Below, in pieces: positions 31,430 to 47,568 of a stretch of 64,000 bases of DNA; within the stretch, counting starts at the first letter, position 1, and the number at the start of each line of letters is the position of its first letter. Source of the DNA: an uncultured Chloroflexia bacterium (GTDB taxonomy: Bacteria; Chloroflexota; Anaerolineae; Anaerolineales; Villigracilaceae); contig CAVUHJ010000002.1 of the NCBI GenBank assembly GCA_963741325.1, positions 59,373 to 123,372 on the forward strand, given 5' to 3'. The position numbers and the translations under genes are program-made. A model generated the notes under the pieces. The model saw only the letters and a list, made by a program, of their open reading frames with translations. It was not told where the DNA came from and did no database searches.

Positions 31430-32195
31430 ATGATGCAAAACTTATCAATTCAAAGTAAAGGACTGCAAAAGTCCTACCAGCAGCTTCATGTTCTAAAGGG
31501 CGTGGATTTCGAGGTGGAAAAAGGCAGTATTTTCGCCCTGCTCGGCTCCAACGGCGCGGGCAAGACAACGATTATCAAAATCCTCTCCACGCTGCTGAAA
31601 CCGGACGGCGGGACCGCCTTCGTAAACGGATTCGAGGTTGTGTCAAAGGACGACGATGTGCGGCAGTCGATCAGCCTGACCGGGCAATTCGCCGCCGTAG
31701 ATGAGATTTTGACCGGTCGGGAAAATCTGGTCATGATTGCCAGGCTGCGGCACCTCCATGATCCGCGTCAGGTTGCCGACGATTTGCTGAAACGCTTCGG
31801 CCTGACCGATGCCGCCGACCGCAGGGTGTCCACTTATTCGGGCGGTATGCGCCGCAGGCTCGACATCGCCATGAGCCTTGTCGGGAAACCGCAGGTCATT
31901 TTCCTCGACGAGCCGACCAACGGGCTTGACCCCGAGGCGCGCATCGAGGTTTGGAAGACTGTCAAAGAGCTTGCTAATAACGGCACGACGGTATTCCTGA
32001 CCACGCAGTATTTGGACGAGGCCGAGCAGCTTGCCGATCAGAATTGCCATTCTGCATGAGGGCAGGATTATCGCCAACGGCACACTCGCGGAGCTGAAAA
32101 AACTGTTCCCGCCTGCAAAGGTGGAATATATTGAAAAACAGCCGACATTGGAGGAGATATTCCTCGCAATCATCGGCAAAAAGGAGGAAAAGTAA
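31430..32195 (+). CDS. ABC transporter ATP-binding protein (DrrA/ABC-2 type); frame broken near 32040
   Basis: GSNGAGKTT, YSGGMRRRL, IFLDEPTNGLD; the C-terminus ..RIAILHEGRIIANGTLAELKK.. is recovered in the next frame. Confidence 0.8.
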
Positions 32196-32963
32196 ATGGA
32201 AACGATAAAGAAACACTTTTTCAGCGATATGGGCGTGATGCTTGGACGTTCCATGCGCCATATTTTCCGCAGCATGGACACCATCATCACGGTCACCATC
32301 ACGCCGATCGCGATGATGCTGCTGTTCGTCTATGTGTTAGGCGGCGCAATCCAAACCGGTACGGATAACTATGTGAATTACCTGCTGCCCGGCATCCTGC
32401 TGATTGCGATTGCAAGCGGCATCGCCTATACGGCTTACCGTCTGTTTATGGATATGCAAAGCGGCATCTTCGAACGGTTCCACTCCATGCCGATTGCGCG
32501 TTCCACCGTGCTGTGGGGGCACGTGCTGACCTCGCTGGTATCCAACGCGATTTCGGTTGTCGTCATCATTCTCGTAGCGCTCATTATGGGCTTCCGCTCG
32601 TCGGCAGGGGTACTGTCATGGCTTGCCGTAGCCGGTATCCTCGCGCTGTTTACGCTGGCCCTGACATGGATCGCGGCGATTGCCGGACTGTCCGCAAAAT
32701 CGGTGGACGGTGCAGGCGCCTTTGCCTATCCGATTATCTTCCTGCCCTTTATCAGCTCGGCGTTCGTGCCGACCGCATCGATGCCGCCGGTCGTTCGCGC
32801 CTTTGCCGAAAACCAGCCGGTGACCTCGATCGTGGACGCCATCCGTGCGTTGTTGTCAAGCCAGCCGGTTGGTAATGATATATGGATTGCTCTTGCGTGG
32901 TGTGTCGGGATTATGCTCGTGGCTTATATCTTTGCGATGAGGGCGTATAAAAAGCGGGTGTAA
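32196..32963 (+). CDS. ABC-2 type transporter permease
   Basis: Intact 255 aa, 6 TM; its ATG abuts the ATPase stop (TAAATG). Confidence 0.75.
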   Translation: METIKKHFFSDMGVMLGRSMRHIFRSMDTIITVTITPIAMMLLFVYVLGGAIQTGTDNYVNYLLPGILLIAIASGIAYTAYRLFMDMQSGIFERFHSMPIARSTVLWGHVLTSLVSNAISVVVIILVALIMGFRSSAGVLSWLAVAGILALFTLALTWIAAIAGLSAKSVDGAGAFAYPIIFLPFISSAFVPTASMPPVVRAFAENQPVTSIVDAIRALLSSQPVGNDIWIALAWCVGIMLVAYIFAMRAYKKRV

Positions 32964-34137
32964 AGAAAGAACAATTTTTTCTATATTGAACATCAGTGAA
33001 GGCTGCTGCATCGGCTCTACAGGGATCACAGTAGAAACAGTGGAAACAGCAGCCGAAATGCAGTCAATTGCTCCAACATTTGAGATCGAATCATCTGGCC
33101 GAGCCAGCCTCAGCGCTTCCGCCAGCACCGCAACAGCTTTCTCGTATTCTTCCAGTGAAATATGTTCATCGGGCGTATGGTCGAGAGCGGAATCGCCGGG
33201 GCCGTAAACCACCGCGGGGCACTTCCATACCGGCGCGACCAGGTTCAAGTCGGCGGTGCCGGACTTATACACGAAGCTGGGCGTCCCACCTTCTGAGCGA
33301 ATGGCGCTGAGCAGGGCGCGCACCAGCGGCGTATTCTTCTCACAGGCCCAGGCAGGGACGGCATAGCCGCGCCGTTCTACTACTCGCACCGGCCGCGATC
33401 TCGCTCAACTTGGTATACCAATCCTCCGGCGATACATCCAGAGGCAAACGGGTGCCGATGTGCAGCTTTGCCCATTGCTCGAAGCCGTCCGCACCGGACT
33501 CGAGGCCTCGCAGCGTGGGCAGGATCTTATCAAAGGCCCGGGGTTTATTCCCATTGAATGAATCCGCGTAGGCTTTGACCGCCAGCCACAATTCAACTGC
33601 GTCCTCGCAAGCCGTCTGCTCGCCGCTGGAGGAATGGGCCTGCGCGCGCTTGACCGACAACCTGCGCCCAGGCGCTGCCTTTATACCCAAGCGAGATCCT
33701 GTCCCAGCGGTTGGGTTCACCCACGATGGCAAGGTCCGGCTTGTAGCGTGAAACCACATAACGCGCCCCATCCGAATCACGTTCTTCTTCCACCGCACCG
33801 ATCACGACCATCTGCCACCCGCCACCAAGCCGACTTGCGCGACCGCATCTACAAAACACGCCAGCGGGCCTTTGGCATCCACGGAGCCGCGACCATACAG
33901 GTTCCCCTCTTCCACGCGGACAGGGATCTCTCCCGGCACCGTGTCTATGTGCCCGAGCAATACGATCTGCCTGGGGCCCGTTCCCATCAGGCCCACTGCG
34001 TTACCGGCTTCATCCACAAATGCATCCGAGTAATGCAGCGCCTTCATGCGCTCCACCAGCCAGTCAGCCGCATCGCGCTCGCTCCCCGAAGGACTGAAGT
34101 GCTCCACGAGGCCGGTCAGCGTGGCGGCATCATTCAT
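32856..34137 (-). CDS. lysK: [LysW]-lysine hydrolase / acetyl-ornithine deacetylase family (M20); frame broken at least 3 times; the last about 45 codons look like read-through
   Basis: [67 protein letters not shown]; operon position after lysJ (8-nt overlap). Confidence 0.75.
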
Positions 34138-35318
34138 CTTTGAGGTCCGTGCTGAGCACATCGCGCAGCGTGTCCACGAGATGGTCGAGCTGTTCATAGG
34201 TAATGACCAGCGGCGGCAGGAGGCGGATCACCGTCAGACCGGCGTTCAAGGCCAGGATATGCCGCGCCTGCAGTTCTTTGATATACGGTTGAACCTTTTG
34301 TTTCAGCTCGATGCCGACCATCAATCCCAAGCCCGCGCACTTCGCGGATCAGCGGCGAGTTGATCTCGGATAATTTGTCCATGAGGTAGGCGCCTTTTTC
34401 GGCGGCCTGGCCGGGCAGGTCCTCTTCTTCGATGACTTCCAGGGCAGCCACCGCCGCGGCGCAGGAAAGCGGGTTGCCGCCGAAGGTGGACCCATGCACA
34501 CCCGGGACGAGGTTCTTGATCTTCGGGCCGATCAAGACCGCACCGATGGGCACCCCGCCCGCCAGCGACTTGGCGCAGCACAGCATGTCCGGCGTAACGC
34601 CGGTATGCTGCACCGCAAACAATTTCCCGGTGCGGCCAAACCCGCTCTGGACTTCATCCACGATCAGCAGCGCCTCATGCGCATCACAGATGCGGCGGGC
34701 CGCCTCGATATACGCTTTATCCGCCGGGTACACTCCGCCTTCGCCCTGCACCACTTCGACGATAAACGCGGCGGTCTCATCGGTAACGGCCTTCTCCAGC
34801 GCGGCGATATTGTTATACGGCACGTGGCTGAAGCCGGGGACAAGCGGCTCGAAGCCTTCACGATATTTTTTGTTATAGGTGGCCGAAAGCGAACCCAGCG
34901 TGCGACCGTGGAAGGCGCGCATGGTCGCAACGATACCGGCGCGCCCGGTGGAGATGCGCGCAAATTTGATGGCAGCTTCGATCAACTCGGTGCCGGAGTT
35001 GCAGAAGAAGACCCGGTCCAGCCCCGGCACGAGCGTCCCCATTTTTTGGACTAGCGCCGCGCGTTTATCATTGTAAAAACTCTCGAACAGGGTGACCAGC
35101 CTAGTGGCCTGTTCCGCCAGCGCGGCAGCTACCTTGGGATGCGCATGTCCCAGGTTCGCCACGCCGTGCCCGGAATTACAATCCAGGTATTCGACCCCGT
35201 CAATATCCCACAGCAAGGCTCCCTGCCCGCGCACGAAGATGATGGGCTGCTTGGTATACAGCCCCGAGGCGAAGTGCGACTCGGCCTCGATGATTTCAGT
35301 TGCCGTTAAAGTTTTCAT
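34130..35318 (-). CDS. lysJ: [LysW]-aminoadipate semialdehyde / acetylornithine aminotransferase; frame broken near 34325
   Basis: Class III PLP transaminase motifs (..[27 protein letters not shown]..). Confidence 0.8.
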
Positions 35319-36136
35319 TGGATCACTGTTCCTTTACCTGATAATGCGTTCACGATTGGGTTTTGAATGCGACCATCCGCGATGATCACCCGCTTCACTC
35401 CGCCCTTGAGAGCTTCTTCTGCGCCGAGCACCTTTTTCTTCATCCGGCCCTGCGCCGCTTCGAGCGCGGCCGGAAGCTGGCTTTGCGAAAGCTGAGGGAT
35501 CACCGTGCTCTCGTCGGGGAAATTTTTCATCAGCCCCGGCACGGCAGTGAGCAAGACCAGCGTCTCGGCCTGCAGGGCCGAAGCGATACTGGCGGCAGCC
35601 CGGTCGGCATCGATATTCAAGGCCTCGCCCTTCTGGCTGACCGCCATCGGCGCGATGACCGGCAGATAGCCGTTCTCCAGCAATATCTTGAGCAGTGCGG
35701 TGTCCACTTTCTCAACCTTGCCGGTGTAATCATCGCGTATTATTTTGCGTTTGCCGTTCTCGACGCTCTGGATGGAGTCCTTGCGCGCCGCCTGCATCAA
35801 ACGGCCGTCGAGGCCGCTCAGGCCAAAGGCGTTTACGCCCAGCATTTGCAGTTGTTCCACCAATAAGGTATTGACCTTGCCTTTAACCGCCATGGCGAAG
35901 ATCTCCAGGGTCTTGCGGTCGGTGTAGCGCGAGGTATAACCGGACGGTGACGTGATGAAGCGCGGCGGCGTGCCCAATGCTTCGCCCAGGGCGCTGGCTT
36001 CGGCCGAGCCGCCGTGCACGAACACCAGCCTGTTGCCCTGTTTGAGAAGCTCCGCGGCGTCGGCGCAGACAGCGGAGAAATCAACACCTTCCGTCCCGCC
36101 GAGTTTCACTACTGTAATGGTAGTTTGAATTGACAT
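35315..36136 (-). CDS. lysZ: [LysW]-aminoadipate kinase / acetylglutamate kinase family
   Basis: Intact 273 aa; ..VVKLGG..LVFVHGGS.. amino-acid kinase fold; ATGA overlap with lysJ. Confidence 0.8.
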   Translation of the reverse strand: MSIQTTITVVKLGGTEGVDFSAVCADAAELLKQGNRLVFVHGGSAEASALGEALGTPPRFITSPSGYTSRYTDRKTLEIFAMAVKGKVNTLLVEQLQMLGVNAFGLSGLDGRLMQAARKDSIQSVENGKRKIIRDDYTGKVEKVDTALLKILLENGYLPVIAPMAVSQKGEALNIDADRAAASIASALQAETLVLLTAVPGLMKNFPDESTVIPQLSQSQLPAALEAAQGRMKKKVLGAEEALKGGVKRVIIADGRIQNPIVNALSGKGTVIQ

Positions 36137-36281
36137 AGGTTATTCCGGATTAATACCTCGAGTTTATTGAAAAAAGATTTAACGCCGAGTCGCGAAGGCG
36201 CAAAGATTCTTTTATTTTCTAACTTGGCAACTTAGCGTCTTCACGTTAAGGCTAGATTCTTATGAACGTTCCAAGGTTCCT

Positions 36282-36384
36282 GTCATTGCGAACGTAGTGA
36301 AGCAATCTCAAATTTCCATGCAAATTTACAATAAGATTCTGGTTTGAGATTGCTTCGTCGCTAGGAAACGCTCCTCGCAATGAC
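36282..36384. repeat. GTCATTGCGA..CTCGCAATGAC palindromic repeat (copy R1) between lysY and lysZ
   Basis: Termini GTCATTGCGAAC / CCTCGCAATGAC; inner pair GAAGCAATCTCAAA / TTTGAGATTGCTTC. Confidence 0.8.
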
Positions 36385-36393
36385 GCATCACAT

Positions 36394-37428
36394 TTATATC
36401 GGGTGCAGACCCGCAAAGCCCAGGCCGGTCGTTTCGTCCAGGCCGAGCATCAGATTCATGCACTGCACCGCGGAGCCGGCCGCGCCTTTCATCAGGTTAT
36501 CGATGGCGCACAGCGCGACCACATGGCCGGTGGCCTCGTCCAGCTCGAAACCCAGGTCCGCATAGTTGCTCCCGGATAACACTTTAGGCTCCGGCACGCG
36601 GTAGATGCCGCGCTGTTCCTTGACCACGCGGACGAACGGGTTTTCATCTGCCACGGCCCGGTAGGCTTTCCACAGGTCCTTGTTCGTCACGCCGGGCTTT
36701 ACCCTGGCATGCGCGCTCGCCAAAACGCCGCGAACCAGGTCCACGGCGGTCATAGTGAGAGTGACATCCTTCAGGCCCAATTCCTGGATGACTTCCGCTG
36801 TATGACGATGACCGAAGGCCGAGAAGGTGCGGATCACGTTGGCGCGCTCTGCATGGTGCGAACCGGCATTGCCTTCCGCTCCCGATTCCGAGGAGCCGAC
36901 TTTCACTTCGATGATGACCGGCGCAGATGGGTCGATAAGCCCGGCCTTAACCAGCGGCAGCAGCGCCAGATTGCTGGCGGTCGCGTTGCAGCCTACACCG
37001 CTCACGTAACAGGCACTTGATAGATCGGCGCGGTGCAGTTCCGGCAGGCCGTACACGAATTTGCTCAACCATTCCGGTGCGGCATGCGGGGCGCCGTACC
37101 ACTGCTCGTAATCGGCCGGGCTTCGTAGGCGGAAATCGGCGGACAGGTCAACGATCTTGCCGGCCAGCGAGGCATAATTTGCAATCTGCTTCTGCGCCTG
37201 CCCATGCGGCAGGGCCAGGAACAACACATCCACCGGCTCGATCTGCCCGGGGTCGCTGAACTTGAGCTTGGTCTGCTTGCGCAGGTTCGGATGCACCTGG
37301 TAGACGTATTCGCCCAGGTGCGATTGCGAAGTGGCCTGCCTGACTTCGACCTGCGGGTGGCTGAGCAGCAGGCGGAGCAATTCGCCGCCGCCGTAGCCGG
37401 ACCCGCCTACTATGGAAACACTGACCAT
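36394..37428 (-). CDS. lysY: [LysW]-aminoadipate-6-phosphate / N-acetyl-gamma-glutamyl-phosphate reductase
   Basis: AAGGAG RBS; MVSVSIVGGSGYGGGELLRLL..; active-site region ..YVSGVGCNATA.. Confidence 0.8.
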   Translation of the reverse strand: MVSVSIVGGSGYGGGELLRLLLSHPQVEVRQATSQSHLGEYVYQVHPNLRKQTKLKFSDPGQIEPVDVLFLALPHGQAQKQIANYASLAGKIVDLSADFRLRSPADYEQWYGAPHAAPEWLSKFVYGLPELHRADLSSACYVSGVGCNATASNLALLPLVKAGLIDPSAPVIIEVKVGSSESGAEGNAGSHHAERANVIRTFSAFGHRHTAEVIQELGLKDVTLTMTAVDLVRGVLASAHARVKPGVTNKDLWKAYRAVADENPFVRVVKEQRGIYRVPEPKVLSGSNYADLGFELDEATGHVVALCAIDNLMKGAAGSAVQCMNLMLGLDETTGLGFAGLHPI

Positions 37429-37484
37429 GCTGAACTCCTTGGTCTTGCTGAGTTTAGGTAAACCGTAGCGGCGAGAGGATGCCG

Positions 37485-38560
37485 CTACGGGCAGTGATAC
37501 GGTCGCGATACCGATTCGCATGAGCTTTTCCCTTCCGTTATCACGGAGAGGACGAAAAGGAATTCCGGTATTCTTTCAGAAGCAACAGGTAATAACGTTA
37601 GATTGATCAAAGGATGTACGATTTTTGAGAATGAAAGAAATCCTTTTATTCTCCGAAATGGAGTGTTCTTTAATGAAGGACAGATATTCATTGTGCGCTG
37701 GTACTCCGCGACTTCGAGCACGTAGCTCACGATCTCGTCGGCGATATCCACGCCGCTGATGGGCTGGGCGGTATGGAACTCCATGGTGTGGTTGAGCTCG
37801 TTCACCACCAATCCCTTCTCAGGATGTTCCACCAGGTCGATAGCCAGCACGCCGCCGCCCACCGCTGCCGCAGCCTTGAGGCACAGGGCTTCGATCTCCG
37901 GCGTGAGCGGGCACAGCTCGCCTTCGCCGCCCCGGGCGGTGTTGGTGATCCAGTGCTCCGACTTGCGATAGATGGCGGTCAGCACGCGGTCGCCGACCAC
38001 GATGGCGCGGATGTCACGTCCGGGCTTGGCGATGTATTCCTGGATGTAAAACACCGAGTGCTGCACCGAGCCCGAGCATGGACTTATGCTCCAGGATGGC
38101 CTCTGCGGCATCGCGATCATTGACCTTCGCTAACAGCCTGCCCCAGGACCCGACCACCGGCTTGAGCACCACCGGGTAGCCAAAGGTTTCGATGGCCGCC
38201 AGTGCCGCCTCGGGCGTGAACGCAACCACGTTGTGAGGCTGAGGCACACCCGCCGCGGGCCAGCATGGCGGAAGTGGTGAGCTTGTCGCCGCAGATCTCG
38301 GCCACCGCCGCGGTATTCACGGTGGGCACGTCGAAGGCGTTCAGGACGCGCAGGGCGTTCAGCCCGCTGGTGAAACTGATGCTGCGCTCCAGCACGGCAT
38401 CGAACGCCCGCCACGGCTGCGGGTTATCCAGGTCGAAAGAGATCGTCCGGTCGTCGAGACGCTCGTAATCGATGCCGCGCTTTTCCAGCGCGGCAAAGAT
38501 CCATTTTTCTTCCACGCGCACGCGCGAATAGAGCACGCCGATATGCAGGCGGTTCCGCAT
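37485..38560 (-). CDS. lysX: RimK/LysX-family ATP-grasp ligase next to lysW; frame broken at least 2 times, true stop probably near 37690
   Basis: ..[60 protein letters not shown].. Confidence 0.75.
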
Positions 38561-38564
38561 GCGG

Positions 38565-38738
38565 TTACTCGCCCCAGTCCTCTTGCTCCATGGGAGCCGG
38601 TTGGACGGCAGCGGGCTGCAGGGAGACGACCTCCAGGTCCACTCCGCAATCGGGGCAGACGATGATCTCGCCCACTTCGGTGTTCTCTGCCAGGTTGATC
38701 TCGGCCGCGCATTCGATACAGGAAACGTTGTTGTTCAT
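38565..38738 (-). CDS. lysW: Amino-group carrier protein LysW (57 aa; absent from the ORF track because it is under 60 aa)
   Basis: Hand translation MNNNVSCIECAAEINLAENTEVGEIIVCPDCGVDLEVVSLQPAAVQPAPMEQEDWGE*; CxxC..CxxC zinc ribbon and C-terminal EDWGE; AAGGAGAAAAGA RBS. Confidence 0.85.
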   Translation of the reverse strand: MNNNVSCIECAAEINLAENTEVGEIIVCPDCGVDLEVVSLQPAAVQPAPMEQEDWGE

Positions 38739-38786
38739 TCTTTTCTCCTTGGTTTGATTATTTTTGAAACACTATCGTATTCATTT

Positions 38787-38918
38787 GTCATTGCGAGCCG
38801 GTTGAGTAGGCGGCGTTCTTCCGCCGTAAAGTGTGCAATCTCGCTTTATTCAGGATATCTCTTGTCTAAACAGTGGATTGCCACGCCGCCAAGAGCAAGA
38901 ACGGCGGCTCGCAATGAC
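38787..38918. repeat. GTCATTGCGAG..CTCGCAATGAC palindromic repeat (copy R2) between argH and lysW
   Basis: One arm GTCATTGCGAGCCGCCGTTCTTGCTCTTGGCGGCGTGGCAATCC is nearly identical to the first arm of R3. Confidence 0.8.
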
Positions 38919-38926
38919 CCGCAAAT

Positions 38927-40301
38927 TCATTTCTTCATTAATTCTTTTGCATTTTGGATCTGCTTTCTTACGGACTCTCGGAGCCGTGCCTCCGATGACG
39001 TTCCTGCGTTCAACGGACTTCATCGGGTCAAGGACTGCGTATACATCTGCTTCGAACGCGGGACAGATGGCCTGATACCGTTCGATGGGTAACAACTCGA
39101 GTCCCAAGCCTTCGTCCGAGGCGGCACGGACGACTTTGCCCACCAATGTATGCGCTTCGCGAAACGGGACTCCCTTGCCCACCAGGTAATCTGCCAGGTC
39201 GGTTGCCATCATGAACGAATCGATGGCGGAGCGCATACGTTCCGGGCCAAGCGTTAAGGTTTGCAGCGCGCCCGCCAGCACCGGCAGGGTGCTCCCTACT
39301 ATGTCGTAAGCCGCGAAGACCAGCGCCTTATCCTCCTGCAAGTCCTTGTCATACGTGGAGGGCAGTGCTTTCAGCACGGATAGCATCCCCACCAACTGGC
39401 CGATGAGCACACCGGCTTTGCCGCGCGTCAGCTCGAACACATCGGGATTCTTTTTCTGGGGCATCAGGCTCGACCCGGTTGAAAAGGAGTCGGAGAGCTC
39501 GAAGAAGCCGAACTCCGTGCTGGTAAACAGGATGACCTGCTCGGCCAGCTTGCTCAAATGCACGCCGATCAGCGCGGCGCAGAACAGGAACTCTGCGGCA
39601 AAGTCGCGGTCTGAAACGGCATCCAGGCTGTTGGGAGAAGGCATACTAAAATGAAGCGCCTCCGCCAACGCAGTGCGGTCAACGGGGATGGGCGTACCGG
39701 CCAGCGCACCCGACCCCAGGGGCAGCACGGAAACTCGCTTGGCTAATTCGGCAAGCCGCTCGCGGTCACGTTCGAGCGGCCAGAAGTGTGAGAGCCACCA
39801 GTGAGCCAGCAGGATGGGTTGTGCGCGTTGCAGGTGTGTATAGCCCGGCATGAGAGTCTCGCCCGCCGCTTCGGCGCAGCCGATCAGCACCGATTGCAGA
39901 TCCGCCAACTCGGTTTGGATGCCGGGCAGGGACTGCAGCATCCAAAGCCGGAAGTCAGTGGCAACCTGGTCGTTGCGGCTGCGCCCGGTATGTAATTTAC
40001 CGGCTGCCGGGCCGATCAATTCCGTGAGGCGCCGCTCGACCGCGCTATGGATGTCTTCGTCATCGGGGGCAAAAGGAAACGTCCCGTTCGAAAGCTCGTC
40101 CAAAATAGAGTGCAGGCCGCTGTTGATCTGAGCGTGCTCGTCGTCGAGCAGCACGCCCGCCTTTTGCAGGGCCTGCGCCCAGGCCAGGCTGCCTTCCACA
40201 TCCTGCACAGCCAGGCGCCAGTCCACCGGCAGCGACGAGTTCAACTGCCGGGCCGAGGGGTCCAGCTTTTCGTCGAAGCGCCCGCCCCACATCTTGCTCA
40301 T
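38927..40301 (-). CDS. argH: Argininosuccinate lyase; frame broken near 38965
   Basis: MSKMWGGRFDEKLD.., ..GSSLMPQKKNPD.. signature; natural end ..QIQNAKELMKK* is recovered one frame over, stopping 8 nt before repeat R2. Confidence 0.85.
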
Positions 40302-40311
40302 GCCTTCTCCT

Positions 40312-41586
40312 TCAGTCACGTTTGAACCGTGAGTAATCGGGTTTGGGCATGTCCATGCCGGAGACGGGCAGCCCGTTGAGAGCGCGTACCTTCATCGATA
40401 AACCGAATAAACGAATAAATCCTTCCGCGTGACTCTGGTCGTAGACATCCTCCTGGCCAAAGGTTGCAAAATCTTCGCGATATAAACTGAACGGCGACTT
40501 GCGCCCGGCGGCGATGATATTGCCTTTGTAGAGCTTGAGCCGCACGGTGCCGGTAACGGGACCCTGGGTTGAATCCACAAACGCATCGATGGCCTCGCGC
40601 AGCGGCGTGAACCACAAGCCGTTATAGGTCAGCTCGGCATATTTGACCGCCACCATCTCCTTGAAATGCATGGTCTCGCGGTCGAGGATCAACGACTTCA
40701 AGTTCGCGATGGGCATGGAACAAGATCGTTCCGCCGGGTGTCTCGTAAACACCATGAGACTTCATCCCCACCAGGCGGTTCTCCACCAGGTCGACGCGGC
40801 CGATGCCGTGCGTGCCGCCGATGGCGTTGAGCCTTTCGACGATCTTGGCGGGCGACAACTTTTCATCGTTCACCGCCACGGGGCGTGCCGCTCTCGAATT
40901 CGATCGTGACGTACTGCGGCTTCATCCGGGGCATTCTCAGGGGAAGTGCTGATCTGATACATGGATTCTTCCGGCTCGTTCCACGGGTCTTCCAACAGCC
41001 CGCCTTCATGCGAAATATGCCACAGGTTCGAATCGCGGCTGTAGATGGACTTGATGGTGGCGGTGACCGGTACGTTATGCTTGGCGGCAAAGGCGATGGC
41101 GTCTTCGCGCGAGCGTATCTCCCATTCGCGCCAGGGAGCGATGATCTTCAAGCGCGGGTCGAGCGCCATGACGGTCAGCTCGAAGCGCACCTGGTCGTTG
41201 CCTTTGCCGGTCGCGCCGTGAGCGACGGCATCCGCGCCCACCTGATGAGCCACGTCCACCAGGTGCTTGGCGATCAGCGGCCGCGCCACCGAAGTGCCCA
41301 GCAGGTATTTGTGTTCATAGATGCCCCCGGCTTTGAGCATGCGGAACAGGTAATCTGCCGCGAACTCCTCCTTGAGGTCCTTGATCACGCACTGGCTGGC
41401 CCCGCTCTTCATGGCTTTCTGCTCGAGGCCGCGCAGGTCTTCGTCGCCCTGGCCCACGTCGGCGCAAAAGCAGACGACCTCACAGGCATAATTCTCCTTG
41501 AGCCAGGGCACGATCACAGACGTATCCAATCCTCCGGAATAGGCCAGGACGATCTTCTTCACTTGCGGTTTTGGTTTGGTTTTCAT
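40312..41586 (-). CDS. argG: Argininosuccinate synthase; frame broken about 3 times (near 40920, 40870 and 40720)
   Basis: ..[13 protein letters not shown].., ..[14 protein letters not shown].., ..[14 protein letters not shown].. across four ORFs. Confidence 0.85.
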
Positions 41587-41599
41587 AACAGCTCCTTGA

Positions 41600-41637
41600 A
41601 GCAAAATAAAACAGCCCTCCGAGAAGGAGGGCTGTTT
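41600..41637 (-). terminator. Intrinsic terminator 15-20 nt upstream of the argG RBS (attenuator candidate; also the end of the upstream unit)
   Basis: AAACAGCCCTCC-ttctc-GGAGGGCTGTTT followed by TATTTTGCTT on the minus strand. Confidence 0.7.
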
Positions 41638-41675
41638 GGGTTCACCGGCAGGTGCGCTTTTGTATTGCCTGCCTA

Positions 41676-41765
41676 TTCCATCATCCGAACCAAAAAAGAT
41701 CCAACCTTCTCACGGAGAAGTGGATGCGGACGACGGGTACGCGGGCTCACAAAAAGCCTTAACAT
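41676..41765 (-). CDS. Candidate 29-codon leader peptide, Arg-rich
   Basis: [30 protein letters not shown]; 6 Arg including tandem CGT CGT; the ATG lies 10 nt after the -10 box. Confidence 0.35.
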
Positions 41766-41775
41766 ATTGGGCGGT

Positions 41776-41803
41776 ATTCTACCACCCACCGCAAATATGT
41801 CAA
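41776..41803 (-). promoter_or_regulatory. Sigma-70-like promoter of the arg leader
   Basis: TTGACA-16 nt-TAGAAT then ACCGCCCAATATG. Confidence 0.5.
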
Positions 41804-42000
41804 TGCTGTTTTGGAAAATCTTTTTTGAAATTCTAAACTGATTGGCTGCTCTTTTGGCAGCCGAATCCCGATCCGCATTTAGAGTTGGGCTGTTTATGTT
41901 TGCATAGATGATCCTGTCAGCCTCAGAGAGTCTCTTAAGTCTTTGCTGCCTTCTATTTTGAACGCGGATTTCACAGACAAATAAGGATTTTTTTTCAAGA

Positions 42001-42045
42001 TTTTCCGCGTAAATCCGTTAAATCCGTGTTATCCGTGTACAAATC
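42001..42045. repeat. CCGCGTAAATCCG-type short repeat cluster
   Basis: TTTTCCGCGTAAATCCGTTAAATCCGTGTTATCCGTGT; related strings at 45731-45770 and 55310-55355. Confidence 0.6.
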
Positions 42046-42051
42046 GCCTCA

Positions 42052-42900
42052 TCAGGCCATTACCTTTGCCTGGGCCAATACATAATCCACCATCTTCTCC
42101 GGGATGTTGACTCCGGTGGTGGTGATGCTGTTGCGGAACTCCATGGTGTGATTGATCTCATTGATGGTCAGGCCGTTCTCGGTCTCGAACAAGTCGAGCG
42201 CCAGCAGTCCGCCTCCCATGGCCTGTGCGCCGCGCTGGCACAGGTCGGCGATCTCGTCCGTGACCGGGCAGTTGGTGGCAACCCCGCCGCGGGCCGTGTT
42301 GGTGATCCAGCTTTCCGAGGAACGGTAGATGGCGCAGATGGTCTCATCGCCGATCACGAAGGCGCGGATATCGCGCCCGGGCTTGTTGATATATTCCTGG
42401 ATGTAAAAGACCTGGTGGTTGACGCCCAGCGCGGCTTTATGTTCGATGAAAGCCTGGGCTGCCGAGCGGTCGTCCACTTTGGCCAGCAGCCGCCCCCACG
42501 ACCCGATCACCGGTTTGAGCACGCAGGGGTAGCCCACCTGGTCCATGGCGGCCATGGCGGAATCCTCGTCGAAGGCCATCAGCACGCGCGGCGTCGGGAT
42601 GTTGTTCCTGACCAGGATCTGGCTGGTGACGTATTTGTCGCCGCAGCGTTCGGCGATCACGGACGGGTTGATCACGGGCACGCCCTGCGCTTCGAAGATC
42701 CGGGAGATATACAGGCCTCGCGAATAGGAGATGGACCGTTCGAAAAGCACATCAACCTCCCAGGAGGGTTTTGAGATATCGAAGTACGTCTCGCCGTCCA
42801 GGATCCGGACGATCTCCACCTTGGGGCGGCGCGCTAATTCTTCCAGCAGGAGTTTCTCCTCGGGGCGCAGGCGGGTCATAAGAAAACCAATACGGGTCAT
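42052..42900 (-). CDS. Second RimK/LysX-family ATP-grasp ligase (LysX or ArgX paralogue)
   Basis: Intact 282 aa; roughly 50% identical by eye to the lysW-adjacent copy (..[50 protein letters not shown]..). Confidence 0.75.
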   Translation of the reverse strand: MTRIGFLMTRLRPEEKLLLEELARRPKVEIVRILDGETYFDISKPSWEVDVLFERSISYSRGLYISRIFEAQGVPVINPSVIAERCGDKYVTSQILVRNNIPTPRVLMAFDEDSAMAAMDQVGYPCVLKPVIGSWGRLLAKVDDRSAAQAFIEHKAALGVNHQVFYIQEYINKPGRDIRAFVIGDETICAIYRSSESWITNTARGGVATNCPVTDEIADLCQRGAQAMGGGLLALDLFETENGLTINEINHTMEFRNSITTTGVNIPEKMVDYVLAQAKVMA

Positions 42901-42903
42901 GCG

Positions 42904-44418
<1,515 letters not shown>

Positions 44419-44419
44419 G

Positions 44420-45677
44420 TCAGGCCTCCTCGAAAGTAGGGTCGTGGGTCGGTGATCTTGCCGGTCAGCGCTGTGGCAGCCGCGGTGGCCGGGCTGGCCA
44501 GGTAGATCTCCGATAGCGGGCTGCCCATGCGTCCGATGAAGTTGCGGTTCATGGTGGTGAGGGCCCGCTCGCCGGCCGCCAGGATCCCGCCGTGACGGCC
44601 GATGCACGCGCCGCAGCCTGAGCCGGTGACCGTGCAGCCCGCATCCATCAGGATCTCGATCAGCCCGTTCTGCAGGGCCTTCTTGTAGATGCGCGCGCTG
44701 GCCGGGGTGACGATGACGCGTGTATACGGGTGGACTTTTTTCCCTTTGAGCATGTTCGCCACGATCTCCAGGTCTTCATAACGGGCATTGGTGCAGGTGC
44801 CGATATAGACCTCCTGCACCTCCAGCCCGGTCACCTCGTCCAGCGGCTTGACGTTGTCCACATCCGGGTGGCAGGAGACCTGCGGCGCAAGCTCGGAAAC
44901 ATCGAGTTCCAGCACACGCTCGTAATGCGGGTTCACCGGCAGGATCATTTCGAACGGACCTTGAGCCGGTGTCTCCTTTTCAAGGTAGTCGAGCGTGACC
45001 TGGTCGGCGGCGATCAATCCGCATTTCGCGCCGATCTCGGTGGACATGTTCGGAAAAATAATGCGCTCATGCACCGGCAGGTTATCGATGTAGTCCCCGC
45101 CGAATTCCACGGAACGATAGGTGGCGCCGTCCATGCCCAGCAGGCCGGCGATATGGATCATCACATCCTTGGCATAAACTCCCGGCTGGGTCTTGCCATG
45201 CAGTTCCACCCGCAGGGTCTCCGGCACCTTGAACCAGCATTTCCCGGTCACCCAGGCCACGCCGATCTCGGTGGAGCCCAGTCCGGTGCCAAAGGCGCCC
45301 ATGGCTCCGTAGGTATTGGAATGCGAGTCGGCGCCGATGACGATGGACCCGGGCGTGACAAAGCCTTCCTCGATCATCACCTGGTGGCATACACCCTGCT
45401 TGAACAGGTAGGGCAGTTCCTGTTCTTTTACGAATTCCATGATCTTCTTATGGTTCTCGGCTGCCAGTATATTCGGCGCCGGATAGGCATGATCGAAATG
45501 GATCACGATGCGCTCCTTATCCAGGATCGGCTTGCCGATCTCCTTAAAGGCCTTGATGGCAAGCGGGGTGGTATTGTCGTGGCTCATGATGTAATCCACG
45601 TCCACCAGCACGATCTCACCGGCATGCACGTCATGCCCGGCTTTGCGGGAAAGGATCTCTTCAATCAAAGTACCCAT
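44420..45677 (-). CDS. hacA: Homoaconitase large subunit (LeuC-like); frame broken near 44445
   Basis: AGAAGGAGAG RBS; ..IGADSHSNTYGA.., ..GTCTNARYEDL.., ..GCGACIG.. Fe-S ligand motifs. Confidence 0.8.
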
Positions 45678-45730
45678 AATCTCTCCTTCTTTCGATTTGG
45701 TCTGTCCAACTGGCAAATCTATAAACTGGA

Positions 45731-45770
45731 CACGGATCAACGCGGATAAACGCGGATTTTTCGGGAAGGC
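45731..45770. repeat. ATCCGCGT-type short repeat cluster (inverted orientation)
   Basis: Reverse complement reads AAAAATCCGCGTTTATCCGCGTTGATCCGTGTCC. Confidence 0.55.
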
Positions 45771-45939
45771 CAAAGCGAGAAAAATCCATTCCGCCTTTGC
45801 GGATGGCCTTGATGCATAGAAACCGCCAAGCACGCAGAAAAAAATTGGCCTTCATCTTTGTTTATCTCTGTTCATCTCCGGTGAATTTCCACTACCGGAG
45901 GAACACTCTCCCATAAGCCATGCGGAAGCCTCATTTCGA

Positions 45940-47325
45940 TCACTCAGCCTTCCCGTTGTATTTTTTCAGCACCATGCGTGTCTCGGTGCGTTTCACCCCG
46001 ACCACCGTGCGGATCTCTTCGATCAGGTTGTTCAAGCGCCATCACGTTCTCCACGTTCACAAAAGCGTTGATGTCATAATCGCCCGTGAGCTCGTAGACG
46101 TAGTTCACATTCTTGAACCCGCGCAGCCGGCGCACCACCGACGTGGTGTATACATGGGATTCCACTTCCAGCATCACCATGGCGCTGATATCATGCGGGA
46201 TCACATCGATCTCCCGCCCGGTCACGCGTTCGGCGATCTCGATGATGTCCGTGTCGAACAACTGCTTGCGCTCATCGCCCAGGTTTTTGATGCGCGTGAC
46301 GATCACTTCCAGTTCCGCCGGGCTGACCTCGATGCCGTATTCATCCAGCCGGGCAGCCACGGCGCTCTTGCCGGTATATTTATCGATCACGATCTTGCGC
46401 TCCCGGCCCAGGATGGCCGGGTCGAACGGCTCATAGGTACGCGGGTCCTTGAGCACCCCGTTGCTGTGGACGCCGCTTTTGTGCGTAAAGGCGTTCTGTC
46501 CGGTGATGGGTTTATTGGGAGCCATGAAGAACCCGGAGACCTTTTCGAGATAGCCCGAAATATCCATCAAAGGCTGGATGTTGTACTTCTGATCGCCCTC
46601 CAGGTTATGAAAGGCAACGATGGTTTCCGCCAGGTCGGGGATGCCCGTCCGCTCGCCGAGGCCGTTCACCGTGGTATGGATGCAGTCCGCGCCGCCGCGG
46701 ATGCCCGCCATGGCATTCGCCAGCGCCAGGCCGTAATCGTTGTGGCAGTGCAGGTCTATCTTGCAATCCGACAAGCGCTCACGCAGGGCGCACACCCGCT
46801 CGAACATGCTGTGCGGCTGCATGATCCCCAGCGTGTCTGCGAAGCTGATGCGGTCCGCCCCGGCCTCGATGGCTGCGTTGCAGACCTTCACCAGGAATTC
46901 GAAATCGGTGCGGGTGGCATCCTCCGGCGTATAACGCACCTTCAGGCCCAGGCTGCGGGCATAGGCGATGTGGTCGCAGATGATCTCGATCGCCTGTTCC
47001 TGCGTTTTATGCAGCTTGGCATCCAGGTGGATTTTCGAGGTGGCATAAAAGATGGCGACCCTGTCCGCCCCGCAGTCTTTGGCCTTATCGATGCCGGACG
47101 CGTGCGGCGATGGAATGTGCCACGATCTCCGCTTTGAGCCCCAGCCCGGCGATGCGTTGGATGGCCTTGGCCACGCTCGGCGAAACGGACGGGTCGCCCG
47201 CTTCGATCATGTCCACGCCCACACTGGTCGAGCATCCGCGCAATCTCGACCTTTTCATCGATGGTAAAGTTGACATAAGGCGTTTGTTCGCCTTCGCGCA
47301 GGGTGGTATCCAGGATTTCGACCAT
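45940..47325 (-). CDS. hcs: Homocitrate synthase with a C-terminal RAM (Lrp/AsnC ligand-binding-like) domain; frame broken about 4 times
   Basis: [16 protein letters not shown].., ..[12 protein letters not shown].., tail ..[80 protein letters not shown]. Confidence 0.8.
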
Positions 47326-47342
47326 GATACAGGCTCCTTTTC

Positions 47343-47383
47343 TTAAACAAAAAAACGCGCTCTCCGATATCGGAGAGCGCGTT
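47343..47383 (-). terminator. Intrinsic terminator 29 nt upstream of the hcs ATG (attenuator candidate)
   Basis: AACGCGCTCTCCGATATCGGAGAGCGCGTT followed by TTTTTTGTTT on the minus strand. Confidence 0.75.
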
Positions 47384-47427
47384 GGTAATAGAAAATAGAC
47401 GTGAAGCGTTAGCTTATGTCTTTCTGA

Positions 47428-47529
47428 TTAACCAGCGCAGGCCCACAGATTCCGACTATCGAAGATTCCGGACGTGGGCAGGCGCTTAGCGTTGGCCTCA
47501 AAAACAAATGCAGGATTCATCTTGCTCAT
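47428..47529 (-). CDS. Candidate 33-codon leader peptide
   Basis: MSKMNPAFVFEANAKRLPTSGIFDSRNLWACAG*; the ATG lies 10 nt after the -10 box. Confidence 0.3.
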   Translation of the reverse strand: MSKMNPAFVFEANAKRLPTSGIFDSRNLWACAG

Positions 47530-47539
47530 ATTGGGCAGG

Positions 47540-47568
47540 TTTATACTCTTATATGTGTGAATTGTCAA
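47540..47568 (-). promoter_or_regulatory. Sigma-70-like promoter of the lys leader
   Basis: TTGACA-17 nt-TATAAA then CCTGCCCAATATG. Confidence 0.55.

What the first reader, a model, noticed from the sequence alone, without database searches (positions are those of the whole stretch)
32856..47325. LysW-carrier lysine cluster that also contains argG-argH and two LysX-type ligases
Thirteen co-oriented genes encode the complete alpha-aminoadipate route: hcs, hacAB, hicdh, lysW, lysX, lysY, lysZ, lysJ and lysK. argG and argH are embedded between the upper and lower halves, together with a second RimK/LysX paralogue (42052-42900). In Sulfolobus and Thermococcus a LysX paralogue (ArgX) loads glutamate onto LysW, and LysZ/Y/J/K then serve both lysine and ornithine/arginine synthesis. 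In Thermus the system is described for lysine. The gene content here suggests a bacterial bifunctional LysW pathway. No argB/C/D/J-type genes or argF are visible in this window.
Basis: partly seen in the sequence, partly recalled or inferred. Interest (0 to 1): 0.7.

Follow-up and report, generated by a model that had tools for sequence, protein, structure and literature searches.

The report
Bacterial LysW lysine–arginine cluster, two ligases
An Anaerolineae (Chloroflexota) bacterium carries one small carrier protein (LysW), one set of processing enzymes and two different loading enzymes, which most likely lets the same machinery make both lysine and the arginine precursor ornithine, an arrangement so far shown experimentally only in archaea.

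Summary
The 13 co-oriented genes are real (minus strand, 47325-~33090): hcs, hacA, hacB, hicdh, ligase A, argG, argH, lysW, ligase B, lysY, lysZ, lysJ, lysK. At least seven are broken by frameshifts. These are assembly errors: split genes occur window-wide, and relatives 94-96% identical have every gene intact.

- Ligase A (42052-42900) is the ordinary LysX. It and 120/120 orthologues carry the aminoadipate-specific motif F-I-T-N-S, and it usually follows hcs-hacAB-hicdh.
- Ligase B, next to lysW, has I-(I/M)-T-T-(A/M). F182I alone gives Thermus LysX glutamate activity.
- Across 80 Anaerolineales species genomes, argG-argH-lysW-ligB-lysYZJK is conserved. carAB or argF (OTC) are inserted inside it in some.
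- A conserved leader ORF with an arginine-rich P-R-x-R-R-P motif plus a terminator precedes argG. A K-x-K-R leader precedes hcs.

Ligase B is not an orthologue of crenarchaeal ArgX (33-34% identity), so any glutamate loading arose independently. Untested: enzyme specificity, and whether argJ/B/C/D or a second lysW set exist elsewhere. I rate it a new variant of a known kind, interest about 0.6.

The parts
47349..47568 (-). Leader of the upper (lysine) module. It has a promoter (TTGACA 47568-47563, TATAAA 47545-47540). The ATG lies 10 nt after the -10 box. The 33-codon leader ORF (47529-47428, MSKMNPAFVFEANAKRLPTS...) is followed by an intrinsic terminator (47380-47349).
   Evidence: Read from the sequence. 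The same design, with the conserved motif [EK]-A-[KN]-[AS]-K-R-x-P, occurs in most of 22 related loci. No Rfam match.
45943..47325 (-). hcs, a homocitrate synthase-type gene with a C-terminal RAM/ACT-like domain. It has two frameshifts, near 47100 and 46035.
   Evidence: tblastn to the intact 485-aa orthologue of L003 gives three frames at 94-100% identity. The orthologue scores 409 bits on TIGR02146 LysS (cut-off 413.6) and 508 bits on NF002085 (cut-off 517), both just below threshold. A LysM/RAM-like stretch covers residues 400-480.
44425..45677 (-). hacA, homoaconitase large subunit. The stop codon is lost through a 3'-end frameshift, so the ORF runs on to 44181.
   Evidence: 94% identity to the L003 orthologue over residues 1-416. 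The orthologue scores 519 bits on TIGR01343 hacA_fam.
43924..44418 (-). hacB, homoaconitase small subunit.
   Evidence: 94.5% identity over 164/164 residues. LeuD/HacB family models match.
42897..43927 (-). hicdh, homoisocitrate/isopropylmalate dehydrogenase-family gene, with 2-3 frameshifts.
   Evidence: The fragments match the homoisocitrate dehydrogenase model NF040626 (292 bits) and TIGR02088. tblastn to the L002 orthologue falls in three frames.
42052..42900 (-). Ligase A, a canonical LysX (LysW:2-aminoadipate ligase). Intact, 282 aa.
   Evidence: TIGR02144, 342 bits. 51% identical to Thermus LysX. The motif F182-I192-T203-N258-S259 is identical to Thermus LysX in this protein and in 120/120 orthologues. 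It lies directly downstream of an upper-AAA gene in 23/27 loci.
41603..41803 (-). Leader of the lower (arginine) operon. It has a promoter (TTGACA 41803-41798, TAGAAT 41781-41776). The ATG lies 10 nt after the -10 box. The 30-codon ORF (41765-41673, [17 protein letters not shown]...) is followed by an intrinsic terminator (41637-41603).
   Evidence: Read from the sequence. An ORF with an R-x-R-R core, mostly P-R-x-R-R-P, is present in nearly all of 63 loci. Promoter plus ATG spacing is conserved in 60/63. The consensus fold pairs the Arg codons CGUCGUCC with GGAUGAUG, and the terminator stem shows compensatory changes. No Rfam match.
40312..41586 (-). argG, argininosuccinate synthase. Two nearby compensating frameshifts lie around 40755-40870.
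   Evidence: tblastn covers residues 1-423. The ORFs are split. The orthologue scores 639 bits on NF001770.
38850..40319 (-). argH, argininosuccinate lyase. Homology ends near 38931.
   Evidence: 85% identity over 457/457 residues. The orthologue scores 580 bits on TIGR00838.
38565..38738 (-). lysW, the amino-group carrier protein. It is 57 aa with a Cys-rich zinc ribbon and a C-terminal EDWGE. It is the only copy in the window.
   Evidence: TIGR01206, 69 bits, cut-off 53.2. It is the only lysW tblastn hit in the window.
37700..38560 (-). Ligase B, a divergent LysX-family ligase proposed to load glutamate onto LysW (an ArgX analogue). Two +1 insertions lie near 38253 and 38072, and the 3' end is probably shifted as well.
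   Evidence: Three frames, each 93% identical to intact 289-aa orthologues. The motif is I-I-T-T-A here and I-(I/M)-T-T-(A/M) in most of 120 orthologues (111 of 120 are IMTTM, IITTA or IMTTA), never F182, N258 or S259. GSWGR is present. 54% identical to TtLysX and 34% to StArgX.
36394..37428 (-). lysY, LysW-aminoadipyl/glutamyl-phosphate reductase (ArgC homologue).
   Evidence: TIGR01850, 371 bits. 94% identity to the L003 orthologue over 344/344 residues.
35315..36136 (-). lysZ, LysW-aminoadipate/glutamate kinase (ArgB homologue). Intact.
   Evidence: NF010659, 404 bits (cut-off 223). It also exceeds the cut-off of the bifunctional model NF010662 (207 vs 194).
34133..35318 (-). lysJ, aminotransferase (ArgD homologue). 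One frameshift lies near 34330.
   Evidence: The orthologue scores 452 bits on TIGR00707 (cut-off 410).
33093..34137 (-). lysK, LysW-lysine/ornithine hydrolase (ArgE homologue). It has frameshifts near 33380 and around 33800.
   Evidence: The fragments hit NF003367. The intact orthologue scores 394 bits (cut-off 363).

Best explanation
The window comes from an Anaerolineae (Chloroflexota) bacterium, probably a long-read metagenome assembly. It encodes a branched amino-group-carrier (LysW) pathway.

Module 1 is hcs-hacA-hacB-hicdh-ligase A. It makes 2-oxoadipate, which an aminotransferase encoded elsewhere converts to 2-aminoadipate (AAA). Ligase A, a true LysX, attaches AAA to the C-terminal glutamate of LysW.

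Module 2 is argG-argH-lysW-ligase B-lysY-lysZ-lysJ-lysK. It supplies the single carrier, and ligase B attaches glutamate to the same carrier. LysZ (kinase), LysY (reductase), LysJ (aminotransferase) and LysK (hydrolase) then process either adduct. They release lysine from LysW-AAA and ornithine from LysW-Glu. Ornithine goes to arginine through OTC (encoded elsewhere in this genome, inside the operon in some relatives), ArgG and ArgH.

Each module has its own promoter, short leader ORF and terminator. The leader ORF is rich in Lys codons upstream of hcs and in Arg codons upstream of argG. This suggests separate attenuation control by lysine and by arginine supply.

Shown here: gene identities, order, conservation, motifs and leader anatomy. 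Inferred: the substrate of each ligase, sharing of LysZ/Y/J/K, and the attenuation mechanism.
For: 1. Specificity motif (T. thermophilus numbering 182/192/203/258/259). Ligase A and 120/120 orthologues have FITNS, the motif of the AAA-specific Thermus LysX. Ligase B and 120 orthologues have I-(I/M)-T-T-(A/M) in most cases and never F182, N258 or S259. In Thermus LysX, F182I alone raises glutamate ligation to the level of AAA ligation, and bulkier, more hydrophobic residues at 192/203/258/259 favour glutamate (PMC12998189).

2. Gene context in 80 Anaerolineales species genomes:
- lysW-ligB is adjacent in 79/80.
- argG-argH-lysW-ligB is found in 60/64 loci with enough upstream sequence.
- OTC lies between ligB and lysY in 7 (NF001986, 422 bits, cut-off 306).
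- carA/carB lie inside or directly upstream of the operon in 16.
- L058, L069 and L070 read carAB-argGH-lysW-ligB-argF-lysYZJK, a full glutamate-to-arginine gene set.

3. Ligase A follows an upper-AAA gene in 23/27 loci. It can sit far from lysW with no second lysW or lysZYJK beside it, as in L002, where it is followed by pur genes.

4. The order argG-argH-carrier-ligase-argC-argB-argD-argE is the same as in the genetically proven haloarchaeal ArgW arginine cluster (PMC10433800).

5. A leader ORF with an R-x-R-R core, mostly P-R-x-R-R-P, plus a terminator precedes argG in nearly all of 63 loci. A K-x-K-R leader plus terminator precedes hcs.

6. Thermus LysZ and LysY already accept LysW-Glu derivatives (about 60% and about 15-20% of native activity), so sharing the downstream enzymes is biochemically plausible.

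7. Both ligases keep the LysW-binding GSWGR motif.
Against: There are no biochemical data for any protein of this clade. Motif-to-specificity rules are imperfect: swapping the motif in Natrinema ArgX did not change its specificity.

Ligase B is overall slightly closer to Thermus LysX (54%) than ligase A is (51%), and it does not group with characterised ArgX. Databases name both ligases LysX.

I could not inventory whole genomes. A canonical ArgJ/ArgB/ArgC/ArgD route, or a second lysW-lysZYJK set, may exist elsewhere. In the related order Thermoflexales, KEGG module M00028 was scored complete in a paper's supplement.

No antiterminator structure was found for the leaders.
Confidence: 0.7

Rival explanations
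1. This is a Thermus-like lysine-only system. Ligase B, adjacent to lysW, is the working LysX, and ligase A is a redundant isozyme. argG-argH are neighbours by chance, and arginine is made by a conventional acetyl-glutamate pathway elsewhere.
For: Both ligases are annotated LysX and pass or match TIGR02144. Both are closest to Thermus LysX. Whole-genome absence of argJ/B/C/D was not tested. A related order scores complete for the canonical KEGG module M00028.
Against: The motif difference between ligase A and ligase B has been fixed and conserved over more than 100 orthologues each. argGH linkage is conserved in 60/64 species, with carAB and argF inserted inside the operon. An Arg-codon leader precedes the operon. 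FITNS ligase A, not ligase B, travels with the AAA-forming genes.
Confidence: 0.1
2. There are two separate monofunctional pathways. The lower operon is an arginine-only ArgW-type system, as in haloarchaea. Lysine uses ligase A together with a second carrier and a second lysZYJK set, or a DAP pathway, encoded elsewhere.
For: The gene order is collinear with the haloarchaeal arginine-only cluster. Genome-wide copy number of lysW and lysZYJK could not be checked.
Against: No second lysW or lysZYJK lies next to ligase A in any of about 27 loci, including L002, where the lysine module stands alone. There is only one lysW in 64 kb. An AAA-forming module with a strict LysX but no downstream enzymes would be pointless unless it uses the shared set.
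Confidence: 0.12
3. The cluster is a decaying pseudogene array, the frameshifts are real, and the pathway is non-functional in this organism.
For: At least seven of the 13 genes are interrupted in the window as given.
Against: Frameshifts occur throughout the window in unrelated genes. There are no in-frame stops or decay within fragments, which are 90-96% identical in amino acids to intact orthologues while the DNA is about 86-90% identical to L001. The two insertions examined in ligase B are single extra G bases in G/C-rich runs. L001 has frameshifts at other positions, and the short-read relatives are intact.
Confidence: 0.04
4. Ligase B loads another amino acid onto LysW for a secondary metabolite, as in the AmCP clusters of Streptomyces and other bacteria.
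For: Some of its nearest 50%-cluster relatives (P0243, P0258) sit in carrier-protein clusters with transketolase subunits and NRPS genes. The quartet with P0243 has 62% support.
Against: No transketolase, NRPS or other tailoring genes are present here. The neighbours are argG, argH, carAB and argF, and the arrangement is conserved across a whole order.
Confidence: 0.03

Closest known systems
Sulfolobus (S. acidocaldarius / S. tokodaii) LysW system with LysX plus ArgX and shared LysZ/Y/J/K (Ouchi et al. 2013, as summarised in PMC12998189)
   Same: The logic is the same: one carrier, two dedicated paralogous ATP-grasp ligases that decide between AAA (lysine) and glutamate (ornithine/arginine), and one shared set of kinase, reductase, aminotransferase and hydrolase.
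   Different: This system is bacterial. Ligase B is not an ArgX orthologue: it is 33-34% identical, its motif is I-(I/M)-T-T-(A/M) rather than I-Y-V-G-F, and it falls on the other side of the tree in 92% of bootstraps. The operon includes argG-argH, and carAB or argF in relatives. Leader ORFs with terminators precede both modules.
Thermus thermophilus / Deinococcus LysW lysine pathway
   Same: It is bacterial and has the closest sequences (LysX 51-54% identity; the best LysZ and LysK models are the Thermus-type ones). Ligase A has the identical FITNS motif. lysN is encoded outside the cluster.
   Different: Thermus has a single ligase and a separate canonical acetyl-glutamate arginine pathway. 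Here there is a second, divergent ligase, and the lower genes are embedded in an arginine operon.
Haloarchaeal ArgW-mediated arginine pathway (Natrinema gari J7-2, PMC10433800)
   Same: The gene order is the same: argG-argH-carrier-ligase-argC-argB-argD-argE(-argF). The carrier has the EDWGE end and the ligase has GSWGR.
   Different: Haloarchaea lack the AAA-forming genes and make lysine by the DAP route, so their system is arginine-only. This cluster also has hcs-hacAB-hicdh plus a strict LysX.
Thermococcus kodakarensis bifunctional LysX/ArgX (TK0278)
   Same: One LysW system yields both lysine and ornithine.
   Different: Thermococcus uses one promiscuous ligase (motif Y-I-T-N-A). This cluster has two specialised ones.
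RimK (ribosomal protein S6 glutamate ligase)
   Same: It shares the ATP-grasp fold and belongs to the same superfamily.
   Different: The RimK equivalog model is far below its cut-off (85 and 53 bits against 331). A LysW partner and the GSWGR motif are present here.

Membership tests
LysW/AmCP-mediated lysine biosynthesis (Thermus type) | Carrier protein LysW: a zinc ribbon of about 55 aa ending in EDWGE | tested here: met
   57-aa ORF at 38565-38738 ending in EDWGE. TIGR01206 scores 69 bits (cut-off 53.2).
LysW/AmCP-mediated lysine biosynthesis (Thermus type) | LysX ligase with the GSWGR LysW-binding motif and the AAA-type signature F-I-T-N-S | tested here: met
   Ligase A scores 342 bits on TIGR02144 and has GSWGR. 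FITNS is present in it and in 120/120 orthologues.
LysW/AmCP-mediated lysine biosynthesis (Thermus type) | LysZ, LysY, LysJ and LysK homologues | tested here: met
   NF010659 scores 404 bits. TIGR01850 scores 371 bits. TIGR00707 scores 452 bits (orthologue). NF003367 scores 394 bits (orthologue).
LysW/AmCP-mediated lysine biosynthesis (Thermus type) | AAA-forming enzymes: homocitrate synthase, homoaconitase, homoisocitrate dehydrogenase and the aminotransferase LysN | tested here: inconclusive
   The hcs, hacAB and hicdh families are present. The HCS models score just below their cut-offs (409 vs 413.6), and these families overlap with the Leu enzymes. A separate leu-like set is seen in L075. 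No lysN was recognised in the cluster.
Sulfolobus-type dual LysX/ArgX LysW system | Two paralogous LysW ligases in one genome | tested here: met
   Ligase A and ligase B are 52% identical to each other. Each forms its own clade with 100% bootstrap support.
Sulfolobus-type dual LysX/ArgX LysW system | One ligase is an ArgX (orthologous to crenarchaeal ArgX, motif I-Y-V-G-F) | tested here: not met
   33-34% identity to StArgX. The motif is IITTA/IMTTM. The quartet (ligA, ligB | Tk, StArgX) has 92% support. The system may work like ArgX but is not a member of that orthologous group.
Sulfolobus-type dual LysX/ArgX LysW system | A single LysW and a single LysZ/Y/J/K set shared by both branches | tested here: inconclusive
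   There is one copy in the 64-kb window, and none next to ligase A where the modules are separated. Whole genomes could not be searched.
Sulfolobus-type dual LysX/ArgX LysW system | Glutamate ligation to LysW by the second ligase; no ArgJ/ArgA-dependent route | not testable with these tools
   This needs enzyme assays and whole-genome inventories. The only test possible was a tblastn with ArgJ, which found nothing in the window or in any fetched locus.
Haloarchaeal ArgW arginine pathway | [quoted passage not shown] | tested here: met
   The order is the same here and in 60/64 related genomes. argF lies inside the operon in 7.
Haloarchaeal ArgW arginine pathway | Arginine-only system: no AAA-forming genes and no LysX | tested here: not met
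   hcs-hacAB-hicdh and a FITNS LysX lie directly upstream.
RimK ribosomal S6 modification | Passes the RimK equivalog model | tested here: not met
   NF007764 scores 84.7 bits (ligase A) and 52.7 bits (ligase B fragment) against a cut-off of 331.

The most novel reading that the evidence does not exclude
Anaerolineales bacteria make all their ornithine and arginine, as well as their lysine, on a single LysW carrier. They lack ArgJ/ArgA-type acetylation altogether. The branch point is set by a strict LysX and by an independently evolved glutamate-LysW ligase with a new specificity motif, I-(I/M)-T-T-(A/M). The two branches are controlled by a pair of near-leaderless leader-peptide attenuators, one reading Lys codons (hcs) and one reading Arg codons (argG). 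This would be the first bacterial carrier-protein arginine pathway. It would also be a living bacterial counterpart of the bifunctional ancestor proposed for lysine/arginine pathway evolution.
Probability: 0.4. Interest if true: 0.75.

Novelty: new variant of a known kind. Interest (0 to 1): 0.6.

Why it matters
LysW-dependent arginine (ornithine) synthesis has been demonstrated only in archaea: Sulfolobus, Thermococcus and haloarchaea. In bacteria (Thermus, Deinococcus) the carrier route is described for lysine only, and current evolutionary models treat it that way (PMC12998189).

This cluster would be a widespread bacterial order with Thermus-like enzymes, two ligases and a complete arginine operon built around LysW. 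Four consequences would follow:
- It would give a bacterial example of the bifunctional state.
- It would show that glutamate-loading specificity arose more than once.
- It would supply a new natural specificity motif for enzyme engineering.
- It would correct a systematic annotation error. Both ligases are currently named LysX, so KEGG-style reconstructions score the LysW ornithine module as incomplete (for example 83%).

The paired Lys-type and Arg-type leader ORFs are also a testable case of amino-acid-specific attenuation in Chloroflexota.

Tried and rejected
- Exact look-up of ligase A found nothing on record.
- An Rfam scan of 32000-48500 at E<=1 found no riboswitch, T-box or other family for either leader.
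- Cluster-member names for ten family representatives gave almost no taxonomy.
- I looked at the context of the nearest non-Anaerolineae relatives hoping for more arginine operons. P0241 sits in an ordinary lysine cluster. P0243 and P0258 sit in secondary-metabolite carrier-protein clusters.
- The NJ phylogeny could not resolve the order of ligase A, ligase B and Thermus LysX. The question of whether ligase B arose by duplication of LysX inside Chloroflexota is therefore left open.
- I searched for an antiterminator by folding the leaders with the ribosome-covered 5' part blocked. The terminator stayed in the minimum-energy structure, so the attenuation mechanism is not established.
- tblastn with ArgJ (a B. 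subtilis sequence recalled from memory and validated against PDB ArgJ chains) found nothing in the window or any fetched locus. This says nothing about the rest of the genomes.
- Literature searches found no description of a LysW arginine route or an ArgX-like ligase in Chloroflexota or other bacteria.
- I did not use structure prediction. The tool returns no coordinates, so the substrate pocket could not be inspected.
- The third homology search was left unused. A top-120 list cannot show whether ArgJ is absent from a given genome.

Full report
**Observation.**

ORF listing and family searches confirm thirteen co-oriented genes on the minus strand. In order they are:
- hcs (47325-45943)
- hacA (45677-~44425)
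- hacB (44418-43924)
- hicdh (43927-42897)
- ligase A (42900-42052)
- argG (41586-40312)
- argH (40319-38850)
- lysW (38738-38565)
- ligase B (38560-~37700)
- lysY (37428-36394)
- lysZ (36136-35315)
- lysJ (35318-~34133)
- lysK (34137-~33093)

LysW is a 57-residue zinc-ribbon protein ending in EDWGE (TIGR01206, 69 bits). Ligase A is an intact 282-residue protein that passes the LysX equivalog (342 bits against 276).

I treat these as assembly errors for five reasons:
- Unrelated genes elsewhere in the window are split in the same way, for example the PPDK/PEP synthase at 55.9-58.5 kb and an ABC ATPase at 31.4-32.2 kb.
- Every fragment keeps 90-96% amino-acid identity to intact orthologues and shows no decay.
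- The two lesions in ligase B are single extra G bases in G/C-rich runs.
- A second long-read relative (L001) has frameshifts at other positions.
- Three short-read contigs, 94-96% identical in protein (L003-L005), carry every gene intact.

The closest named relatives are Anaerolineae/Anaerolineales MAGs, including contigs from long-read soil metagenomes.

No argF, carAB or ArgJ-like sequence is in the window. A 2-aminoadipate aminotransferase (lysN) was not recognised in the cluster, so the cluster alone is not a complete route.

**Which ligase is which.**

A five-residue signature (T. thermophilus LysX positions 182, 192, 203, 258, 259) separates three enzyme types:
- AAA-specific LysX: F-I-T-N-S
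- Sulfolobus ArgX: I-Y-V-G-F
- the bifunctional Thermococcus enzyme: Y-I-T-N-A

F182I alone gives Thermus LysX glutamate activity equal to its AAA activity. Bulkier, more hydrophobic residues at the other positions push it further towards glutamate (PMC12998189).

I aligned both ligases with the PDB sequences of TtLysX (3VPD), TkLysX (5K2M) and StArgX (3VPB), obtained.
- Ligase A has FITNS, and so do 120 of 120 orthologues.
- Ligase B has I-I-T-T-A. Its 120 orthologues have IMTTM (57), IITTA (53) or close variants, and never F182, N258 or S259.
- Both keep GSWGR, the motif that recognises the EDWGE tail of LysW.

The divergent enzyme is the one beside lysW.

**Phylogeny.**

Both ligases are much closer to Thermus LysX (51% and 54%) than to S. 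tokodaii ArgX (33-34%). I built a neighbour-joining analysis of 86 family members drawn from a search of 1.84 billion representatives.
- The ligase A clade and the ligase B clade each have 100% bootstrap support.
- They are not sisters (4%).
- They fall together against TkLysX and StArgX in 92% of replicates.
- The order among ligase A, ligase B and Thermus LysX is unresolved.

Ligase B is therefore not an ArgX orthologue. If it loads glutamate, that specificity arose independently. RimK is excluded, with 85 and 53 bits against a cut-off of 331.

**Gene context.**

A scan of one genome per species returned 80 Anaerolineales loci with 10-kb flanks. I mapped them with the intact L003 proteins and with E. 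coli ArgI, CarA and CarB.
- lysW-ligB are adjacent in 79/80 loci.
- argG-argH-lysW-ligB occurs in 60 of 64 loci with enough upstream sequence.
- An ornithine carbamoyltransferase lies between ligB and lysY in seven genomes (NF001986, 422 bits against 306).
- carA/carB are found in sixteen genomes, between lysZ and lysJ (including the isolate Longilinea arvoryzae) or just upstream of argG.
- In L058, L069 and L070 the operon reads carAB-argGH-lysW-ligB-argF-lysY-lysZ-lysJ-lysK. That is every step from glutamate to arginine, provided ligase B loads glutamate.

Ligase A behaves differently.
- It directly follows an upper-AAA gene in 23 of 27 loci.
- The hcs-hacAB-hicdh-ligA block can be inverted (L010, L074, L080).
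- It can also lie elsewhere in the genome. In L002 it is followed by purine genes, with no carrier or downstream enzymes beside it.

**Regulatory evidence.**

The 445-bp gap between ligase A and argG contains the following elements:
- a promoter, TTGACA-N16-TAGAAT
- an ATG ten bases after the -10 box
- a 30-codon [20 protein letters not shown]...
- a strong intrinsic terminator just before the argG ribosome-binding site

Nearly all of 63 related loci with sequence upstream of argG carry an ORF with an R-x-R-R core, mostly P-R-x-R-R-P. In 60 of them the promoter-to-ATG geometry is kept. A consensus fold pairs the Arg codons (CGUCGUCC) with a downstream GGAUGAUG. The terminator stem shows AU/GC compensatory changes.

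The region upstream of hcs has the same design. There the leader motif is [EK]-A-[KN]-[AS]-K-R-x-P, and in this window it reads E-A-N-A-K-R-L-P.

No Rfam family matches either leader. I did not find a convincing antiterminator, so attenuation is a hypothesis. Even so, an Arg-codon leader in front of argG-argH-lysW-ligB-lysYZJK fits an arginine operon, and a Lys-codon leader in front of hcs...ligA fits a lysine module.

**Mechanism proposed.**

- Ligase A (LysX) loads 2-aminoadipate onto the gamma-carboxyl of the C-terminal Glu of LysW.
- Ligase B loads glutamate onto the same carrier.
- LysZ phosphorylates either adduct, LysY reduces it, LysJ transaminates it and LysK releases the product. The products are lysine or ornithine.
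- OTC, ArgG and ArgH then finish arginine.

Sharing of the downstream enzymes is plausible. Even the lysine-dedicated Thermus LysZ and LysY turn over LysW-Glu derivatives at about 60% and 15-20% of native activity. The window's LysZ also exceeds the cut-off of a bifunctional kinase model.

Shown here: gene identity, order, conservation, motifs and leader anatomy. Inferred: ligase substrates, shared use of LysZ/Y/J/K, and attenuation. I put 0.7 on this explanation.

**Rivals.**

- A lysine-only system with an accidental argGH neighbour (0.10). This is hard to square with the fixed motif split, the operon-internal carAB and argF, and the leader.
- Two separate monofunctional pathways, with a second carrier set elsewhere (0.12). 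This cannot be excluded without whole genomes, but no second set is ever seen next to ligase A.
- Real pseudogenes (0.04) and a secondary-metabolite role (0.03). Both are unlikely for the reasons given above.

**Comparison and novelty.**

In logic this is the Sulfolobus arrangement: LysX plus ArgX, one LysW and shared downstream enzymes. In sequence it is a Thermus-like bacterial system. In gene order it resembles the haloarchaeal arginine cluster. It fails the test of ArgX orthology, so I do not file ligase B as ArgX. It probably works like one.

I found no description of a LysW-dependent arginine route or a second specialised ligase in Chloroflexota or any other bacterium in the searchable literature. 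Databases name both ligases LysX. KEGG-style reconstructions of a related Chloroflexota genus score the LysW ornithine module as five-sixths complete.

I rate it a new variant of a known kind, with interest 0.6. It is not proven. It is conserved across a whole order and is directly testable with two ligase assays and a genome inventory.

**Limits.**

- Whole-genome presence or absence of argJ/argA/argB/argC/argD, extra lysW copies, lysN and the DAP pathway could not be examined.
- The trees are distance-based.
- The motif-to-specificity inference rests on mutagenesis in a 54%-identical enzyme, and a haloarchaeal counter-example shows that the motif is not the whole story.

Noticed in passing
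window 41603-41803 (minus strand): There is a conserved leader in front of argG. It has a promoter, an ATG about 10 nt after the -10 box (near-leaderless), and a 30-codon ORF with the motif P-R-x-R-R-P. The Arg codons pair with a downstream GGAUGAUG, and an intrinsic terminator follows. It is present in nearly all of 63 related loci and has no Rfam family. It is probably an arginine-responsive leader-peptide attenuator, but no antiterminator was identified.
   Followed up: partly
window 47349-47568 (minus strand): A matching leader lies in front of hcs. It has a promoter, a near-leaderless 33-codon ORF with the conserved motif [EK]-A-[KN]-[AS]-K-R-x-P, and then a terminator. It looks like the lysine counterpart of the argG leader. 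In this window one of the Lys codons is Asn.
   Followed up: partly
whole window, e.g. 55887-58461, 31430-32195, 9621-11934: Genes all over the window are split into overlapping same-strand ORFs in different frames, at roughly one frameshift per kb in the cluster. This is typical of an unpolished long-read assembly. Any ORF-based reading of this window needs frameshift-tolerant methods.
   Followed up: partly
L003:5396-5575, L004, L005; L001:9518-10000: The upper module varies among close relatives. L003-L005 lack hicdh and have a 59-codon ORF in its place. L001 joins the first ~160 codons of hcs directly to ligase A, so hacA, hacB and hicdh are missing there. This is either real deletions or misassembly. 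If real, another dehydrogenase or dehydratase set must substitute.
   Followed up: no
window 29966-30109 versus 33157-33299; also L003:16089-16231: A 144-bp piece of the lysK 3' region is repeated (84% identity, same orientation) about 3 kb downstream. The repeat lies beyond a pentapeptide-repeat gene and an ABC-2 transporter pair (30.5-33.0 kb). A similar lysK-3' copy lies downstream of lysK in L003. It may be the scar of an insertion or duplication.
   Followed up: partly
window 45943-46300 (C-terminal part of hcs); L003:2083-3540: The homocitrate synthase has a C-terminal RAM/ACT-like domain (Pfam AsnC_trans_reg; NCBIfam LysM-like, residues 400-480). To my knowledge such a domain mediates lysine feedback inhibition in Sulfolobus HCS. 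That would add allosteric control on top of the leader.
   Followed up: no
L011, L023, L041, L068, L071 (carAB between lysZ and lysJ); L050, L058, L069, L070 (carAB before argG); L056, L058, L059, L069, L070, L074, L077 (argF between ligB and lysY): carAB and argF have been inserted at different points inside the same operon in different Anaerolineales lineages. The arginine operon is being assembled around the LysW genes in several ways.
   Followed up: yes
L088:6605-13873 and L090:6603-13927: Two of the LysX-family representatives nearest to ligase B sit in carrier-protein clusters: aminotransferase, split transketolase, lysW-like, ligase, reductase, kinase and M20 hydrolase. L090 also has NRPS and MbtH genes. 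These resemble the AmCP secondary-metabolite pathways of Streptomyces. Their ligase motifs are N-I-T-R-T and I-M-V-A-L.
   Followed up: partly
L082 (JBLMZU010000701.1): A 6.9-kb contig with the Anaerolineales operon (ligase B 82% identical) is filed in a MAG labelled Bacteroidota. This is probably binning contamination.
   Followed up: no
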